Shown here piece after piece: positions 3,711-11,400 of a stretch of DNA of 43,143 nt. The first letter of the stretch is position 1, and each line of letters opens with the position of its first letter. The notes under the pieces are model-generated. The model saw only the letters and a program-made list of their open reading frames with translations. It searched no databases and had not been told where the DNA came from. The translations under genes and the position numbers were made by a program. Source of the stretch: a virus (lineage: Duplodnaviria; Caudoviricetes). Where the stretch lies: IMG/VR virus record IMGVR_UViG_3300003969_000009, positions 1 to 43,143 of that record; one strand, 5' to 3'.

Positions 3711-3793
3711 GTGCCGACTTGGAATATTTTTATGATTCCAACTTGACATCATTCCGACTTGGCATTAAATTACAAACAATGCCAACTAGGCAT
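3711..3793. promoter_or_regulatory. Four 15-bp Arc/Mnt-type operators and a rightward sigma70 promoter
   Basis: GTGCCGACTTGGAAT (3711), ATTCCAACTTGACAT (3735), ATTCCGACTTGGCAT (3751), ATGCCAACTAGGCAT (3779); TTGACA (3743-3748), 17 bp, TAAATT (3766-3771). Confidence 0.8.
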
Positions 3794-4000: not shown

Positions 4001-4743
4001 ACCAAGTAGTCCCAACTGGTGGCCCAGCCATCACCATGACCAGCCTGGAGCTGGTGCAGTTCATCAATAACCAGCGCGAAGCCGGTGCCGCTGAACTGGC
4101 GCACTCTGACTTCCTCAAAAAGGTGCCTAAAGTGCTGGGTGAACATGCGGGAAATTTTTCCTGCATGTTCGAAGTGGTAATTGGGCAGGGTGCAACGCGC
4201 CCATCCCCAGGCTACACCTTCCCGAAACGCGAAGCCTGCCTAATGGCCATGTCCTACAGCTACGACCTGCAGGCCAAGGTTTTTGACCGCATGACCGCTC
4301 TGGAAGCCCAGGCAGCCCCCATGGCCGACCCCATGCAGGTGCTCAACGACCCGGTGTCAATGCGGACACTGTTGCTGGGTTACAGCGAAAAAGTCATCGC
4401 CTTGGAAGCCGAAAATGCAGCAATGACCCCGAAGGTCAAAGCCTTTGACCGCATTGCCACGTCAGACGGCTCCCTGTGCCTGACGGATGCCGCGAAAACT
4501 CTGCAGATGCCGCCAAAGAAATTTACCCAACTGCTGCAAGAGCGCCACTGGATATACCGCCGCCCAATGGGCAGTGGCTGGCTGGCTTACCAGGACCGCA
4601 TTCAGCAAGGGTTGCTGGAGCACAAGGTGACGACTGGTGAAAAGGGTGACGGTAGCGAATGGACCAGCACACAGCCGCGCATTACGCCTAAAGGCTTGAC
4701 CAAGTTGGCGGAAGTCGTCCGTCAAGTGGAGGAGATGCATTGA
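3997..4743 (+). CDS. ant: Phage antirepressor (Rha-like N-terminus, ANT/KilAC C-terminus)
   Basis: TMTSLELV...REACLMAMSYS N-terminal domain; PKVKAFDRIA..GSLCLTDAAKTL..AYQDRIQQG..RITPKGL KilAC domain. Confidence 0.9.
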   Translation: MNQVVPTGGPAITMTSLELVQFINNQREAGAAELAHSDFLKKVPKVLGEHAGNFSCMFEVVIGQGATRPSPGYTFPKREACLMAMSYSYDLQAKVFDRMTALEAQAAPMADPMQVLNDPVSMRTLLLGYSEKVIALEAENAAMTPKVKAFDRIATSDGSLCLTDAAKTLQMPPKKFTQLLQERHWIYRRPMGSGWLAYQDRIQQGLLEHKVTTGEKGDGSEWTSTQPRITPKGLTKLAEVVRQVEEMH

Positions 4744-4943
4744 CCACCGCAATACGCACTTGCGCCAACTGCCATTCCTACGCAGGAGGCGTGTGCATGA
4801 ACGGTGTAGTTGGGTCAGTGACTGCAAACGGCAGTTGCGAAGACCATCAAACTGACGAAGAAAATGCCCGCGAAGAGGATGCTCTTAACCGCTTCCGCGC
4901 CACCTTGGGTTTGCCGCCCTTGGAGTTTGACCGTGAAACATAG
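4740..4943 (+). CDS. Small Cys-rich hypothetical protein
   Basis: CANC..C..C.D.H; start overlaps the ant stop. Confidence 0.55.
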   Translation: MTTAIRTCANCHSYAGGVCMNGVVGSVTANGSCEDHQTDEENAREEDALNRFRATLGLPPLEFDRET

Positions 4944-4957
4944 AGACCAAAAAGACG

Positions 4958-4991
4958 AAGCCCAAACAGCGTCAACTGTTCAGGCTTCTTT
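4958..4991 (+). terminator. Hairpin, putative terminator or attenuator
   Basis: GAAGCC-CA-AACAG-CGTCAA-CTGTT-CA-GGCTTC followed by TTT. Confidence 0.35.
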
Positions 4992-5029
4992 GAAAACACC
5001 AACCCTATCAAAAGTATGGAGCGTTCAGC

Positions 5030-5365
5030 ATGAATTCTAGTCCCTCAATCTCCTTGTCGGCAATCCCCCTTGCCAAGAACTATCAGGCCGTGCTCCCAAC
5101 GGCAAAGGTGGTGCCTCTGCCAGGTGCCGCGCTGCAGCCGGTCAAAAATGTAAAGAGCCGTGGACGTTTGACCCACGGTGTCATTCCATTCGTAAAGCAC
5201 CAACGTCGCCGCCATGACCTTCTTGCCGGTTTGGCGCGACGCCAAGAATTGCAGGATCTCCACGACAAGCTGCACGCTGCAAGCGATATGCAGAAAGCTG
5301 TGAATGCCAGATTGCGCGAGCTGAATGCAACGGCTGAAGAGTACGTTTTCATTTTGGAGCGCTGA
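5030..5365 (+). CDS. Hypothetical protein
   Basis: GGAG Shine-Dalgarno (SD) upstream; coiled-coil C-terminus; ends 1 nt before the RAMP-like gene. Confidence 0.6.
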   Translation: MNSSPSISLSAIPLAKNYQAVLPTAKVVPLPGAALQPVKNVKSRGRLTHGVIPFVKHQRRRHDLLAGLARRQELQDLHDKLHAASDMQKAVNARLRELNATAEEYVFILER

Positions 5366-5366
5366 A

Positions 5367-5936
5367 ATGGAACAACTCAAACTCAAAATCGTCGGGCTCA
5401 CACCACTGATGTTTCACGCCGACAAGCTGGCCAACCCGCTCCTGCCAGAGTCGAAGACGCACAAAGAGCTGACTTCGAAGCGCAAAAAAACCGATGACGA
5501 CCACGTCGCCATTGCCCGGTCCGAGTTCCTCGCTGGTTGCTACTGGACTGAAAAGGATGGTTTCTTCGTGCCGGGCCAGAACTTCGACGCGACGTTCCTC
5601 GCTGGCGCCAAGTTGCAGAAACTTGGCACAGCTTGGAAGCGCGGTGCACTGGTGGTGGAAGACAAGATCAAACTGATTCATGACGGCCCCACGACGCCAG
5701 AAAAGCTGTGGGCAAGCCCAAGCAACGTGGACTGCCGTGGCGTCAAAGTCGGCACTGCCAAAATCATGCGCTATCGCCCCGTTTTTCTCGATTGGGCCGC
5801 TACGCTTTCTGTAGCAGTTAACACCGATGTTCTCAACATGACGGAAGCGAAAAAGGCCATTGAAGACGCCGGCGCGTTGATCGGTGTCTGCGAATATCGC
5901 CCCCGCTTTGGCCGGTTTGGAGTCAGCTATGCATGA
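5367..5936 (+). CDS. Stand-alone RAMP/Cas7-like RNA-binding protein (Vipr-like)
   Basis: N-terminal strand LKLKIVGLTPLMFH, FFVPGQNF helix region, RYRPVF, C-terminal Gly-rich loop AGALIGVCEYRPRFGRFGV typical of RAMP proteins; no other cas genes; GGAG SD. Confidence 0.7.
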   Translation: MEQLKLKIVGLTPLMFHADKLANPLLPESKTHKELTSKRKKTDDDHVAIARSEFLAGCYWTEKDGFFVPGQNFDATFLAGAKLQKLGTAWKRGALVVEDKIKLIHDGPTTPEKLWASPSNVDCRGVKVGTAKIMRYRPVFLDWAATLSVAVNTDVLNMTEAKKAIEDAGALIGVCEYRPRFGRFGVSYA

Positions 5937-6399
5937 AGTCGCCGAGCTCAAATTGCACCCCGTGTGGCGCCAGGCTGTGCGGGAATTTCTGGAGGCGGGC
6001 ATCGAACCCGGCTTCGTCATCCAGCACCAGTGGCTAGAAGCCCACTTCGGTATGGAACCGCTGGAAGACGAGGCGTCATTGACGGTCGCCCAGTTCCGAG
6101 ATCGGCAGTTCGAATGGCTTCGCAATCTGGAGGCTTTCAAGACCGAGCTGCTTGAGGAACACCAGGTCTGCTTGGTGTCGGTACACGGAGAGGGCTATCG
6201 CGTTGTGCCCCCGTCAGAGCAAACCGGCACCGCCCAAGAAAAGTTTGAGCGCGAAGTGAAACGGTCCTACAAGCAGGCGGCCATGCGGATGAAGAACGTG
6301 CGCATCGCCGAATTGACCGACTCACAGCGTAAGGAAAACGTGGATGCAATCGCCAAGCTGTCCATGCTGCGCGGGATGCATCGAGCAGCATTGGAATGA
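5929..6399 (+). CDS. Hypothetical protein coupled to the RAMP-like gene
   Basis: MHEVAELKLHPVWRQAV...; overlaps the RAMP stop by 8 nt; LVSVHGEGYRVV resembles a winged-helix wing, followed by helical segments. Confidence 0.8.
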   Translation: MHEVAELKLHPVWRQAVREFLEAGIEPGFVIQHQWLEAHFGMEPLEDEASLTVAQFRDRQFEWLRNLEAFKTELLEEHQVCLVSVHGEGYRVVPPSEQTGTAQEKFEREVKRSYKQAAMRMKNVRIAELTDSQRKENVDAIAKLSMLRGMHRAALE

Positions 6400-6405
6400 T
6401 CTCAT

Positions 6406-6766
6406 CGCGGGGCATGGCGGGACTGGGTAAGGCCAGGCCTGGTGTGGCACGCTTTGGTTCGGTCTGATGAGGCAAGGCAGGGGCTGTCAACAGCTGGTTG
6501 TGCTTTCCGAAAGGGAGTGCATCCAGATGCGATCAGCATCACAAGCCGCGGTGGGCCAGGGCTTGGCGAGGTGAGCCCAGGCAAGGCGTGGCAGGGTATG
6601 GGCTGTCAACAGCAGTAAGCGCATCCTGTGCGTTTACTGAAGCGGATAGCTTCACAAGGCGGGTCTTGGCAAGGCACGGCGTGCTCAGGTCAGGCAAGGC
6701 CTGGTTAGGTATGGGTCGTAAACGACAGAAATCCCACCCCTTCCCTGGGGTGGGCTCTTTCTACAA
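6406..6766 (+). ncRNA. Array of three putative guide RNAs made of phased GGY-NN pentamers plus hairpins
   Basis: Tracts 6411-6480 (14 pentamers), 6545-6599 (11) and 6658-6712 (11); all 36 are G-N-Y-N-N and 28 are GGY. Each tract ends in GG plus a 12-nt hairpin (GCTGTCAACAGC twice, GTCGTAAACGAC once), then a longer hairpin; units are delimited by ACAA. Confidence 0.8.
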
Positions 6767-6776
6767 GGAGAACACA

Positions 6777-7178
6777 ATGGATTCGAAACTCTGGACAAAG
6801 ATCATCACATTTCTATGCGGCCTAGGATTCCTGATCTATGGAGCCACTTTCTTCGGCATTCAAGACTGGGACCTGGGCGTGTCCTTGGTGATGGCGTTCT
6901 GCACATTTGCCACTGCAGATTGGGTTGTTGACGCTTTGCGGCGGAGCGAATACCGCAAGTGGCCCTTGGCCTTGTTCTTTGTTTGGTTCAGTGTTGATGG
7001 CAGCTACTTTGCCTATTGGCAAATCGTGAACCCCGACGCCATGATGCGCGGTGCGCAGTGGCTACCGTCCTTGATGATGTATTTACTCTGTGGGGTCATT
7101 TGGTCAGGCCTTCCCACGCCCCGACAATTCCTTGCCCTATTTCGCGAAGCGAAGGATCGCTGCGTGAGCCGCCGATAG
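6777..7178 (+). CDS. Integral membrane protein (about 4 TM helices)
   Basis: AAGGAG SD, MDSKLWTKIITFLCGLG start, four hydrophobic segments. Confidence 0.8.
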   Translation: MDSKLWTKIITFLCGLGFLIYGATFFGIQDWDLGVSLVMAFCTFATADWVVDALRRSEYRKWPLALFFVWFSVDGSYFAYWQIVNPDAMMRGAQWLPSLMMYLLCGVIWSGLPTPRQFLALFREAKDRCVSRR

Positions 7179-7572
7179 GCAGTTTGAGGCCTACGCCGTC
7201 AGCAGCTCTATTTGCCACTTTTGCAGCCGAATACATGGGCGTAGCTACTATGTTTTGCAGCGCCGCCGCGGGCGTGTCAGAGTTCTCGCGTGCGTAGGCG
7301 CGATGCTCGAACGGTGCGACGGCATTCTGATCAGCAGTGGTTCGTAGTTTTCTGCGTAATGCTAAAAGGTCGCTCCATGACATCCTCGCAAGGTCTTCCT
7401 CTGGTGGTATTGCTCCAACTCCGTAAGGGCTGTGCTCAGGGACCAATGTCAGTTTCTTTACCTGTCGTAGAACGCCCCCCCGGAACTCGCCATCAGACAA
7501 GGCACCTGCCGTGCGCTTGGCCAGATTTCGGACTGACGTCAAACTGAGATTTTTTCCATTGTTTTCATCCAT
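7096..7572 (-). CDS. Hypothetical protein
   Basis: MDENNGKNLS... with an APFEHRAYARE motif; 83-nt convergent overlap with the membrane gene. Confidence 0.6.
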   Translation of the reverse strand: MDENNGKNLSLTSVRNLAKRTAGALSDGEFRGGVLRQVKKLTLVPEHSPYGVGAIPPEEDLARMSWSDLLALRRKLRTTADQNAVAPFEHRAYARENSDTPAAALQNIVATPMYSAAKVANRAADGVGLKLPIGGSRSDPSLREIGQGIVGAWEGLTK

Positions 7573-7590
7573 GCTCACCATCCAATCTGT

Positions 7591-8439
7591 ATGAGTACCA
7601 ATACGCACCACGCCGATAATGTTGTCGTATCCATCGTGAATGGATGGCGCGGTGCGACTGCTGTATCTGTTGTTTCCTCAGTCAATGAACTACCAGTTGT
7701 CGCACCGGGCGACACACGTGGGTTATACAAAGGCGGCGAGACTTGGATCGTTGCCAACACCCAGCCGACGTGGCAAGTGGCCCAAACGCTGGCCCACGAA
7801 ATGCTGGGCCATCACAGCATGCGCAAGACGTTGGGTGCCGGTTGGCGGCCGTTTATGCATGCCATCCAAGCTGGTTTGCGGAGCGGTGATCCGCAACTGC
7901 AAGTTGCCCGAGGCATGGTGCGGTCTGCCTACGTTGACGATTCTGGCGCCTTCAATTTGTCGGCCGTAAGCGAGTCGGATGAAATAGCCGCTCTCGTTGC
8001 CGAACTTGGCTTTGATACTGCAAAAGGCCGTTTGGCTATCCATAGACCTATTCAGAAAGTAGCCGCTGCCACCGCCGGCCAATTTGCCCGCGAAGCCCTT
8101 TTTATGGATAAGCCAGCGACGTTTCAAGATCTGGAGGGGGCGCTTCTCACAGCAGAACACACGCTGCGACATGGCGGCCCCCTATGGGGCCTTGGCTATA
8201 GATGGCGCCGCTGGTATGCTTCGGCGATGTCAAAGCCTTGGGACCCCAATCAACCACCTATGAGCATGCGCGAGTCTCAGAACTTACTGCAGGCAGAAAA
8301 GGACCGTGCAACTTGGTGGTCTGAAATGCAGTTCGGCTGGGACAGCCTCGTACTTCTTGGCAGCGTGATTCTCGGAGTTGGTCTTGTGGGCGTCCTGGTG
8401 CTCCAATTGCTTGGCGTATTTAGCAAGTTATTCCAGTAA
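7591..8439 (+). CDS. Zincin-like metallopeptidase with C-terminal TM helix
   Basis: LAHEMLGHH (HExxxH) plus downstream SDEIAA Glu; hydrophobic C-terminus; paralog of 12018..12761. Confidence 0.7.
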   Translation: MSTNTHHADNVVVSIVNGWRGATAVSVVSSVNELPVVAPGDTRGLYKGGETWIVANTQPTWQVAQTLAHEMLGHHSMRKTLGAGWRPFMHAIQAGLRSGDPQLQVARGMVRSAYVDDSGAFNLSAVSESDEIAALVAELGFDTAKGRLAIHRPIQKVAAATAGQFAREALFMDKPATFQDLEGALLTAEHTLRHGGPLWGLGYRWRRWYASAMSKPWDPNQPPMSMRESQNLLQAEKDRATWWSEMQFGWDSLVLLGSVILGVGLVGVLVLQLLGVFSKLFQ

Positions 8440-8440
8440 C

Positions 8441-11400
8441 TTACGTCGCTTCGGAATAAATCGCTTCCGCAGCCGCATGCATGGCCCCGTCCCGGCCCTG
8501 CTCCAGCATTGCGCTAACCTCGCCTGCACCTGCGAACGGTTGCATCACCCCCCGCTTGATCAGCCCCTCGGTGAATCGCTGTGCAAAGCTCGGCGCTGCT
8601 TCAAGCGGTAGTGCTTGCAATTGAGCCTGCAAAGCAGCCACGGCCTTCTCTGGCATGCCAATCTCTGGCGCCCGCATAGCCACCGCGGCCAACAGACCCG
8701 CGCGGCCAGCGGCTTCCGCTGGCTTGACCCCGGCACTGCGAAGTTGCTCATAGGCTTTGGTGAACTCAGGCAGCGTGTGGTGCGCAAGGTCTGGCGCCAC
8801 GTCGCGCATCCTGGCCAACTCGCTGGGCACTGCAGCTTTTCGCTGGCCGCGTTCATGGTCTTGCTGCATCAGATCGGCTACACCGTCCTCCCCAGCTTCA
8901 CGGAGCCGGTCGATCCTGGCCATCGCCTGTTGCTGGGGGTCAACGGCCGGCTGTTCCTGCTCGGCGCGCGCGGCTTCAAGGTCGCCCAGCGGCTCCTTTT
9001 TGCTGCCGCTCTGTGCCCAGGCCTTGAATACAGGCAGGGGAAGCCGTGTGATGGAGCCCATGCCCTTCCAGCCTGGTGCGTAGTTCGCGGCGTAAATCTC
9101 CTTTGCCTCGTTCTCGTCCACAGCGCCCAGAATGGTCTTGTGCTCGTCCAGCTTGCCGGTTCTTGGGTCCACCTGGTCGATGACGAACACCGGCCCGGTG
9201 TAGTCCTTGGGTGTGCCAGGCTTGATGAACACATCCAGCTTGTCGCCATCAGTCGCAGAAGTGCGCCGCAGGTAACCATAGTGATGCCGCATTTCCGTTT
9301 CCCACGGCTTACCGTCTGGATCGACGCCGCGGCGTACCGAGCCCTGGGGGTTCTCGATGGACACGTCCATACCAGCGATGCGGTCGTGCCCCAAGGCATA
9401 GTTGCCGGCGCGCTGCTGCGCTGGGGTCGGCTCCGGCCGGTCATTCATCGGACTCGTGGCCGCGGCGTGCGCCGTCTGATCAATGCTGGCGATTGGCTGG
9501 GTATCTGCGGCCTGCAGTGGAGTTTGTGCACCAGCGTCTGCGAACTGCCCGCCCTCCCCTGTCAACCCAGCGGGCTGTAAGTCGGCAGGATTTCCGGCTC
9601 CGGGTACACCTTGGGTGGGGGCTGCATTGCTTGCCATTGCCGTTGCCGTTTCAACTGGCGTGGTCTGGGTTTCAGTTCCTGCACCTGTTGCTTGCGTTGG
9701 GTCTTGGACATTTGCTATTGTTTCAGTAGCTGCTTGCGCACTATCCACGGGGGCTAGGCTCTGATTTTGCTCGGTTTCCAGTGCCTGCATGGATACAGGC
9801 TGCGACTCAATCGCCGTTTCTTCTTCCGCTGGATTTCCTTGTTCTGCAGCTCCCAAGGCGTCAAGCACTTCCTGCGCGCGCAATGCCTGTGTTCTACCGA
9901 TGAGTAGGCCTTCTCGGCTGGTTGCAATGCTTTTGGCTGGAATGCCGGCTTGCTGCAAAAGCGAGCGCAAGGCAACGGGGTCGCCAGCGATTGCCATGGT
10001 CCCATCCGGCCGCGCCTTACTGGTGAAAGCCGGCTGTGGTGGGGCTTCCTGCGGCACCGCAGGTACCGTCGATTGCGGATCTGGTGCAGGGTCGGTCGGA
10101 ACATCACCGCCCATAGCCTCTTCGGTGGGCTGGGCCCCGGCCATCGTAGACGCACCCAGCAGCGGAACAGCTCGTGAAACGCCTTTTGTCAGGGCGCTCA
10201 TACCGGCAGGCTGTGCACCGGCTCTTACAGCGGGTTTCAAAATGGCGTTTCGCGCGGTCTGCGAGTTCAAGGCCTTGTTTGCAACGCGGCCTACTCCCAT
10301 AACACCGCCAGCAGCAATTGCGGCAGCTCCGGCAACCGGTACGCCCATTGCGCCCAACACTGCCGCCGTGCTCGCTCCACCAGCGCCAAATACACGCTGC
10401 GCATTACCGTGCGCAGCCTCTCTGGGTTTGACGAACTGCGCGGCGATATCCGCCAGCTCTTGCAAGTCGGGGTTATTGATGTGCTTCAGATTCGCAAGCC
10501 GAGCAACCGATATCTCGCCGTCTACCCCGTTGCGCGCTAGGTTTTGCAGCGCCAGCATGTTTCCGTACTGCTGACGCAGTGTCTTGAATGACTGCGCTTG
10601 CTCCGCACCCAAGCTGTCATTCAGGGCATCCATCAAGTTTTTTTTCAGGTCACTGGCATAGAAGGCTTCCGGCGTGTTTCGCTGCCCAATGCGGTCAAGC
10701 GTCTTCTTGATGTTGTAAGCGGCTTGCCCATCAATCTCGCCCCCTGCCCCTTTGGTCAGAATACTGGCGATCTGCTTGTGAATAATCGATGCGCCATCAG
10801 GCCCCAACTCATTGGTAGCTTGGTTCTCAGCCTCTGCCAGCGCCTCCTTAAATTTCGGCGTGATCTTCAAGGTATTGGCCTGCAGAACGGTGTCAAACTT
10901 CCCGCCCAAGTCGTCGGCAGCTTTGCGAAGTGCCCCTGTAACGTTGGGCGAATCCTGCCCGACCGTGCGCGAAAGCGCTCGATTAAGCTGGGTGTTCATC
11001 AGGTCAATCGTTCCCGCCCTACCACTTAGCGGCACATACTCCAGGCTCCCAGCCGTAGCATTTAGCGCCTTGCTGTCTACCAGCCGGTCAGCCGGTATCT
11101 TGATGCCCAGTTCTTGCGCCCGCGTGGCAAGCTGGCGCACCTCGGGAGAAACCTCACCCACTACTGAGCCTATGGCTTTCCTAGCCGCATGAAGTGTTTT
11201 TGCAGTACCGCGAACTGCCGCCGGCACAGCCCCCCCGATAGCAGCTCCGATACCAGCATCCTCCGGATTAACCATTGCTGCAGACACGCCGCCAGTTGCA
11301 GCCCCGGTAGCAACACGAGTGGCAGCGCCAAGGCCTGTACCGGCAAGTTCTCCAACCCTAAACCCCCCAGTTTCTAATCCCGCCGCTACCGCTTTGGTAA

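What the first reader, a model, noticed from the sequence alone, without database searches (positions are those of the whole stretch)
6481..6766. Covarying hairpin scaffold closes each repeat unit, suggesting RNA processing signals
Seen: every tract ends in GG plus a 12-nt hairpin, GCTGT-CA-ACAGC (6483, 6602) or GTCGT-AA-ACGAC (6715), with compensatory changes. A longer hairpin of unrelated sequence follows (6494-6526 with a GAAA loop, 6613-6639, 6733-6754). Units 1 and 2 add a 5-bp hairpin (GATGC/GCATC, GAAGC/GCTTC). All three end with ACAA (6541, 6654, 6763). Structure is conserved while sequence diverges, which is evidence of selection on RNA. Inference: a precursor is cut into three guides of about 110-130 nt, with the hairpins capping the filament.
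Basis: partly seen in the sequence, partly recalled or inferred. Interest (0 to 1): 0.8.

Follow-up and report, generated by a model that had tools for sequence, protein, structure and literature searches.

The report
RNase III cassettes between VIPR guides
These hairpins separate the three guide RNAs of a phage's VIPR system (a known CRISPR-related gene silencer) and carry the recognition pattern of the host enzyme RNase III, which likely cuts them apart, after which each half is predicted to refold into a small end hairpin.

Summary
The hairpins are real. They are the spacers of a type II VIPR array in a temperate phage: vipr (5367-5936; SUSP1 Vipr E 2e-42), vap, then three GGY/NN tracts.

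In homologous arrays each internal tract ends in P1-P2-P3. P2 covaries strongly (11 pairs pass a tree-aware null). P1 is almost invariant, and P3 is real but dispensable.

Unit 3's long hairpin is terminator-like, not a P2. ACAA is not conserved (6 of 125). The likely boundary is the P2|P3 junction.

P2 carries the four published E. coli RNase III determinants at the published spacing in 52 of 62 full-length copies (shifted registers 0 of 85; terminators 4 of 58). The same boxes flank all four SUSP1 guides. The window's two copies meet 3 of 4.

Leader copies (39 of 97 loci, mostly without P1) and P1-loop/P3-loop complementarity suggest a precursor rod that is cut and then refolds into P1 (3' end) and P3 (5' end).

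No RNA data and no target for this phage's guides were found. The three VIPR preprints do not mention RNase III; earlier unchecked AI notes of this scan do.

The parts
3743..3771 (+). sigma-70-like promoter (10 of 12 consensus matches), the likely start of the operon ending in the array
   Evidence: consensus match only, 3 found against 1.6 expected
5367..5936 (+). vipr (RAMP-like guide-binding protein, 189 aa)
   Evidence: phmmer to PDB 36pp SUSP1 Vipr E 1.9e-42; H17, K33, R137 and G-loop E176-Y177-R178 present; phrog_4652
5929..6399 (+). vap accessory gene (156 aa)
   Evidence: 28% identical to the gene after vipr in Felixounavirus CL1, E 2e-13; 34% to that of LESphi2; phrog_5926
6406..6482 (+). 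guide tract 1, 15 GGY/NN pentamers, some degenerate
6483..6494 (+). P1 of unit 1 (4 bp, 4-nt loop), predicted 3' end hairpin of guide 1
6495..6525 (+). P2 of unit 1, 13-bp stem meeting 3 of 4 RNase III positions; predicted cuts 6496|6497 and 6525|6526
   Evidence: cut sites inferred from PMC1540722 and PMC5141509
6526..6540 (+). P3 of unit 1, predicted 5' hairpin of guide 2
6545..6601 (+). guide tract 2, 11 pentamers
6602..6613 (+). P1 of unit 2
   Evidence: competes with the rod fold
6614..6638 (+). P2 of unit 2, 11-bp stem meeting 3 of 4 RNase III positions; predicted cuts 6615|6616 and 6638|6639
   Evidence: cut sites inferred
6639..6653 (+). P3 of unit 2, predicted 5' hairpin of guide 3
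6658..6714 (+). guide tract 3, 11 pentamers
6715..6726 (+). terminal-type P1 variant
6733..6762 (+). intrinsic-terminator-like hairpin with U-rich tail, in place of P2-P3
   Evidence: 42 of 43 terminator-type terminal tails in homologs carry a variant P1

Best explanation
The hairpins are the spacer cassettes of a type II VIPR guide array, and P2 is likely a cutting site for the host's RNase III that would release single guides from one operon transcript. Shown: vipr, vap and three GGY/NN tracts; P1-P2-P3 after tracts 1 and 2; a variant P1 plus a terminator-like stem after tract 3; covariation of P2; the RNase III box pattern in homologous P2s. Inferred: in the precursor, P1's 3' strand (YAGC) pairs with the bases after P2 (GRUG), and P1's 5' strand and loop pair with P3's loop, giving a rod of about two helical turns. 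RNase III would cut at the P2|P3 junction (6525|6526, 6638|6639), with or without the staggered cut 2 nt after P1 (6496|6497, 6615|6616). The freed ends would refold into P1 (3' end of the upstream guide) and P3 (5' end of the next). Predicted products: guide 2 is 90 nt (two cuts) or 113 nt (one cut); guide 3 is about 124 nt; the 5' end of guide 1 is unresolved because this phage has no leader cassette. Vipr would then coat the GGY motifs and read NN with the 1-nt skip to silence genes of rival phages, as published for SUSP1.
For: Covariation: 85 structure-blind aligned tails, P2 95% paired, 11 of 11 pairs with double changes, 0 of 500 shuffles; 11 P2 pairs with E<0.05 under a tree-aware null. 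RNase III rule (PMC1540722; spacing from PMC5141509): W-W at P2 position 5, G-C/U at 6, U.G at 11, U-A at 12. All four are met in 52 of 62 P2 of 29 nt or more and 53 of 85 overall; in held-out P2, 38 of 115 meet four and 90 of 115 meet three or more; shifted registers 0 of 85; pair-order shuffles mean 0.17, maximum 2; terminator stems in any register 4 of 58. In 160 distinct P2, U.G at 11 is 96% and U-A at 12 is 89%; 39 of 43 sequence clusters have median score 3 or more. SUSP1, whose tail is otherwise unrelated, has five such hairpins flanking all four guides, with 11 further hits in 88 kb; predicted pieces are 105, 122 and 116 nt against '~100 nt' reported. CL1 shows the same. Leader cassettes before the first tract occur in 39 of 97 loci; 32 keep YAGC though only 10 can form P1; A12-U50 holds in 37 of 39 and position 13 varies. 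P1-loop/P3-loop complementarity: 15 of 24 types against 3.95 expected, 11 other registers at or near chance; 6 of 13 dinucleotide combinations against 1.9, p 0.007; held-out 2 of 2 and 6 of 7. Rod and three-hairpin folds are within 2 kcal in 25 of 43 tails, and swapping loops weakens the rod (0 of 60 swaps as good). No + strand promoter-like site inside the array. An RNase III domain is found in 4 of 4 related host genomes and not in the phage record (65% complete). The clade uses the VIPR code: 18 of 206 guides match at 85% or better with skip 1, against 0 (skip 0), 1 (skip 2) and 0 (shuffled).
Against: No cleavage or RNA end was observed. The window's own P2s meet only 3 of 4 positions (unit 1 has U.G at 12, a G-C at the catalytic position 3 and a U.U at 4; unit 2 has C.U at 12) and fail the strict scan. 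Short P2s mostly lack the distal box: 1 of 23 meets four. W-W at position 5 is met in only 76 of 115 held-out P2. The rule comes from E. coli; a review says the distal box sequence is not conserved across species (PMC3867540). The lower half of the rod has a C-G at the catalytic position and a G.R mismatch, and unit 2 breaks the 12-50 pair. The loop-loop pairs reach only p about 0.02 each and are not significant after all-pairs correction in the tree-aware test; the register was chosen after looking; unit 1's common type needs a 1-nt shift; three of the 7 held-out tails come from one locus. P1 and P3 pairs are not individually significant. Two of three predicted SUSP1 pieces are 16-22 nt longer than '~100'. 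No target was found for this phage's three guides.
Confidence: 0.68

Rival explanations
1. RNase III cuts P2, but there is no switch. P1 and P3 stay folded and their loops kiss, forming a compact cap that works like the SUSP1 3' pseudoknot, or the loop complementarity is incidental.
For: P1 is paired in 99-100% of tails. The loop-loop signal is only two pairs and fits kissing loops as well as a rod. A single box set suffices for cleavage (PMC1540722). Unit 1 favours P1 (0.76).
Against: Leaders keep YAGC without a P1 partner. U50 and G51 are kept in tails lacking P3. A cut at P2|P3 would put P1 and P3 on different molecules.
Confidence: 0.15
2. The hairpins are barriers to exonucleases. A single-strand nuclease (RNase E, or Vipr/Vap itself) cuts in the short linker after P3, and the whole P1-P2-P3 stays as the 3' cap of each 110-145 nt guide.
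For: Three stable hairpins follow each internal tract. The published SUSP1 tail caps the filament's 3' end (10.64898/2026.04.26.720927). The window's P2s depart from the E. coli rule.
Against: ACAA is not conserved (6 of 125). It does not explain leader cassettes before the first tract, nor the position-specific U.G/U-A and W-W/G-C pattern shared with SUSP1.
Confidence: 0.12
3. The cassette is self-cleaving, or each unit is transcribed or terminated separately, so no host nuclease is needed.
For: Hammerhead-interspersed arrays are reported for other VIPR types (10.64898/2026.04.26.720920, Fig. S19 legend). L117 shows hammerhead-like spacers and L020 terminator-separated units.
Against: No Rfam ribozyme match. 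The helices abut with no unpaired core. No internal promoter-like site on the + strand, and P2/P3 lack U tracts (4 of 132 internal tails terminator-like).
Confidence: 0.05

Closest known systems
Type II VIPR system of Escherichia phage SUSP1 (bioRxiv 10.64898/2026.04.26.720920, .720927, 10.64898/2026.10.15.759431)
   Same: vipr + vap + array of GGY/NN tracts, each followed by a structured tail; phage-encoded; the clade follows the 1-nt skip code; spacer hairpins with the same RNase III-type boxes.
   Different: Vipr is about 40% identical to SUSP1-family proteins. The tail is P1-P2-P3, not the ~40-nt H-type pseudoknot; the tail model does not hit the SUSP1-like CL1 locus. The papers describe no processing enzyme.
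P. fulva prophage VIPR clade (same preprints)
   Same: Pseudomonas prophage type II systems; Pseudomonas phages Medea1 (74%) and LESphi2 (46%) carry this three-hairpin tail.
   Different: Its published G-loop (C171, D175) differs from I172/E176 here, so it is probably another subclade. Its tail structure is not described in the text I read.
E. coli RNase III hairpin substrates of the T7 R1.1 type (PMC1540722)
   Same: 11 bp between the cut and the loop, proximal box G-C/W-W, distal box U-A/U.G, at the same spacing.
   Different: Here the site is repeated between guides and overlaps two alternative hairpins. The window's copies each miss one position. Cleavage is untested and the host is likely a betaproteobacterium.
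RNase III-dependent crRNA maturation in type II CRISPR (recalled knowledge)
   Same: A host RNase III releases guides from an array.
   Different: There the duplex is formed in trans with tracrRNA on Cas9; here it would be an intramolecular hairpin in each spacer.

Membership tests
VIPR type II | RAMP-like Vipr with G-loop and thumb residues | tested here: met
   E 1.9e-42 to SUSP1 Vipr over 186 aa; residues checked
VIPR type II | adjacent vap1-type accessory gene | tested here: met
   28% identity, E 2e-13, to the gene after vipr in CL1; equivalence to SUSP1 vap1 is by position; weak winged-helix likeness, TM under 0.5
VIPR type II | vrRNAs of 9-16 GGY/NN repeats | tested here: met
   15, 11 and 11 pentamers
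VIPR type II | structured 3' tail after each tract | tested here: met
VIPR type II (SUSP1 clade) | 3' pseudoknot tail | tested here: not met
   different architecture; only a possible 2-bp loop-loop contact
VIPR type II | targets read with a 1-nt skip | tested here: inconclusive
   met for the clade, 18 of 206 guides against 0-1 in controls; no target for the window's three guides
VIPR type II | discrete ~100-nt RNAs bound by Vipr | not testable with these tools
   needs RNA data or a pull-down
RNase III hairpin substrate (E. coli rule) | W-W at proximal box 2 and G-C at proximal box 1 | tested here: met
   both window units (G.U in unit 2); 79 and 76 of 85 homologs
RNase III hairpin substrate (E. 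coli rule) | distal box U-A plus U.G, 5-6 bp beyond the proximal box | tested here: inconclusive
   U.G met and U-A not met in both window units; 96% and 89% in 160 homologous P2
RNase III hairpin substrate (E. coli rule) | A-U or U-A next to the cut (proximal box 4) | tested here: inconclusive
   met in unit 2, G-C in unit 1; 44% W-W in homologs
RNase III hairpin substrate (E. coli rule) | cleavage by RNase III | not testable with these tools
   bench test
Hammerhead-interspersed VIPR array | ribozyme core between guides | tested here: not met
   no Rfam ribozyme match; helices abut without a core

The most novel reading that the evidence does not exclude
Type II VIPR arrays, SUSP1 included, are matured by host RNase III without a tracrRNA or a dedicated nuclease. 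In this clade each spacer is a cut-and-refold cassette: one sequence first forms a two-turn RNase III rod, then splits into a 3' cap for one guide and a 5' cap for the next.
Probability: 0.4. Interest if true: 0.72.

Novelty: new variant of a known kind. Interest (0 to 1): 0.55.

Why it matters
The VIPR preprints show ~100-nt guides from arrays but name no maturation enzyme for type II systems. A host RNase III site in each spacer would fill that gap and gives single-nucleotide cut predictions testable with an rnc mutant and purified enzyme. It would explain how a two-gene system lacks a Cas6 equivalent, and would make RNase III regulation a handle on phage-phage silencing. It would also tell tool builders which spacer features a multiplexed VIPR array must keep. 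The system itself is known, and other agents of this scan reached the RNase III idea too, which limits the surprise.

Tried and rejected
Rfam scan of 4500-8500: nothing above gathering score.

ACAA as a cut signal: rejected. Unit 3's hairpin as a P2: rejected.

Targets of the window's guides: 8-NN seeds in viral contigs gave 2, 14 and 35 loci, none extending convincingly (best 20/30, 18/22, 20/22). Guides 2 and 3 in 401 family genomes at up to 3 mismatches gave 1 hit against 1 control each; the guide-3 hit L202 was only ORF-listed. Guide 1 gave 0 in 121 genus genomes. No self-target. The host is only inferred, so these blanks say little.

No RNA holder listed. A second lay of run X1 on the array laid nothing.

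A tail-pattern scan meant as a held-out set returned mostly chance matches (111 of 124 without a tract) and only 2 new tails.

The tree-aware test did not confirm P1, P3 or loop-loop pairs individually. No leader cassette in the window. Homolog cluster look-up gave no organism names. Look-ups of earlier findings by place and by tail words were empty.

Seventeen fetched loci with divergent Vipr or other spacer types were left out of the tail counts; A2 used 85 hand-chosen, low-redundancy internal tails, nearly all from the 132 unique ones.

Full report
CONTEXT. The window is a 43-kb provirus record with integrase, antirepressor, portal, small terminase and capsid genes. The finding lies behind two genes. 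ORF 5367-5936 matches the solved SUSP1 Vipr protein (E 1.9e-42) and keeps the RNA-binding residues named in the structure preprint. ORF 5929-6399 is 28% identical to the gene after vipr in the SUSP1-like phage CL1. Three GGY/NN tracts of 15, 11 and 11 pentamers follow. This is a type II VIPR locus as defined in bioRxiv 10.64898/2026.04.26.720920. The nearest named relatives are from Variovorax, Acidovorax and Rhodoferax, so the host is likely a Comamonadaceae member (inference).

OBSERVATION. P1 is a 4-bp stem with a 4-nt loop. The third long hairpin is terminator-like and is not recognised by the tail model. ACAA is found in 6 of 125 homologous spacers, and the third copy begins the next gene's ribosome-binding region.

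COVARIATION. From Vipr loci a structure-blind anchor gave 220 unique tails in 124 loci, 132 internal and 88 terminal, after leaving out 17 divergent loci. In a MAFFT alignment of 85 internal tails, P1 is 100% paired but nearly invariant, P2 is 95% paired with double changes at 11 of 11 pairs, and P3 is 71% paired because loop lengths differ; 0 of 500 shuffles reach the score. With my own tree-aware null, 11 P2 pairs pass E<0.05; P1 and P3 pairs do not individually. In 135 further tails fitted to the model, P3 shows double changes at 4 of 5 pairs (this alignment leans to the structure). So selection on RNA structure is shown for P2 and is likely for P1 and P3.

DIVISION OF LABOUR. P1 follows every tract. 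P2-P3 follows internal tracts; in many last units a terminator-like stem replaces it, and 42 of 43 such terminal tails carry a variant P1. P2-P3 also precedes the first tract in 39 of 97 loci, where only 10 can form P1. The window has no such leader. A module placed before each guide and swapped for a terminator at the end behaves like a processing signal.

RNASE III PATTERN. PMC1540722 defines, within 11 bp of the cut, a proximal box (G-C, W-W, A-U, W-W) and a distal box (U-A, U.G); PMC5141509 places them at 2-5 and 10-11 from the centre of cleavage. P2 has W-W at position 5, G-C/U at 6, U.G at 11 and U-A at 12, the same spacing. All four hold in 52 of 62 full-length P2 and 53 of 85 overall; held-out P2 give 38 of 115 with four and 90 with three or more. 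Shifted registers give 0 of 85, pair-order shuffles at most 2, terminators 4 of 58. Across 160 distinct P2, U.G at 11 is 96% and U-A at 12 is 89%, and 39 of 43 clusters have median 3 or more. In SUSP1, whose tail is otherwise unrelated, five such hairpins flank all four guides (11 further hits in 88 kb); the predicted pieces are 105, 122 and 116 nt against '~100 nt' reported. Loci L117 (hammerhead-like spacers) and L135 show no boxes. The register puts the 3'-arm cut exactly at the P2|P3 junction. Against this: the window's two P2 meet 3 of 4 positions and fail the strict scan; only 1 of 23 short P2 meets four; W-W at 5 holds in 76 of 115 held-out copies; and a review notes the distal box is not conserved across species (PMC3867540). 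Related hosts encode RNase III (4 of 4); the phage record shows none.

SECOND FOLD. RNase III needs duplex below the cut. P1's 3' strand is complementary to the bases after P2. Leaders keep YAGC without P1, with A12-U50 in 37 of 39 and position 13 free to vary (the 3' side was fixed by the search pattern, the 5' side was not). Tails lacking P3 keep U50 and G51. P1 loop bases 7-8 complement P3 loop bases in 15 of 24 types against 3.95 expected, with 11 other registers near chance; at the coarser level 6 of 13 against 1.9, p 0.007; held-out tails 2 of 2 and 6 of 7. The tree-aware test gives p about 0.02 per pair, not significant over all pairs, and the register was found by inspection. Rod and three-hairpin folds lie within 2 kcal in 25 of 43 tails, and loop swapping weakens the rod. 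Unit 1 is predicted 76% three-hairpin and unit 2 fully rod. The simplest reading is a precursor rod that is cut and refolds into P1 and P3 end hairpins; kissing loops on intact hairpins are the main rival. This part is less certain than the RNase III site.

GUIDE FUNCTION. Decoding 206 homologous guides against 1.49 Mb of fetched loci gave 18 matches of 85% or better with the 1-nt skip, against 0, 1 and 0 for skip 0, skip 2 and shuffles. Many converge on one tape-measure gene, so independent targets are fewer; others hit vipr or vap of other phages. No target was found for this phage's own guides.

WHAT IS IN PRINT. I read the whole text of the discovery preprint and searched its supplement PDF text; part 1 of 6 plus passages of the structure preprint; parts 1-2 of 8 plus passages of the competition preprint; passages of 10.64898/2026.10.21.760802. 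They describe a tail, by-eye covariation and a pseudoknot for the SUSP1 clade, and hammerhead or staggered arrays elsewhere. 'RNase III' has 0 occurrences in all four. Figures, data files S1-S4 and bioRxiv supplements were not visible, so this locus or its tail may be drawn there; subscription journals were not searched. Of PMC1540722 I read the abstract and the first parts of results, discussion and legends; of PMC5141509 and PMC3867540, passages. Four earlier unchecked AI notes of this scan propose RNase III sites in other VIPR arrays. I saw them after my own tests; they are not independent evidence.

VERDICT. A real, selected RNA cassette in a known kind of system. The tail architecture differs from the published one, and it points to a specific, testable maturation route: RNase III cutting about 0.75-0.8, cutting plus refolding about 0.4. 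Interest 0.55.

Noticed in passing
window 4944-5014 (- strand): Weak Rfam matches to sar and ctRNA antisense RNAs, below gathering score, with a terminator-like stem, in the arc-antirepressor region upstream of vipr.
   Followed up: no
L060:4666-4720; L034:2585; L052:2582; L111:2690: Terminal guides of about nine Pseudomonas-type prophage arrays converge on a tape-measure gene; other guides match vipr or vap of other phages, with the skipped base at the wobble position.
   Followed up: partly
window 6395-6541 against run X1: A contig nearly identical over vipr and vap has unit 1 replaced (126 bases by 130 others) while the P3 stretch 6522-6541 is kept, and a different sequence follows: fast guide turnover.
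   Followed up: partly
last pentamer before each tail: The last NN is AT in 117 and AA in 41 of 206 guides, so the tail-proximal repeat may be scaffold rather than guide.
   Followed up: no
L364, L374, L380 (Vipr 34-36% identical): A divergent clade keeps the double complementarity: P1's 3' strand can pair with the bases right after P2, seen as AGC/GCT and GGT/ACC (by eye).
   Followed up: no
L322, L338, L346, L365: The same three-hairpin tails sit beside very divergent Vipr-like genes (21-24% identity).
   Followed up: no
L117, L129, L020, L135: Other spacer types beside Vipr homologs: hammerhead-like (L117), other stems (L129), terminator-separated units (L020), a distinct Gordonia phage tail (L135).
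   Followed up: partly
L095:3103-3161: One tail keeps both the three-hairpin and the rod fold through five coordinated base changes.
   Followed up: partly
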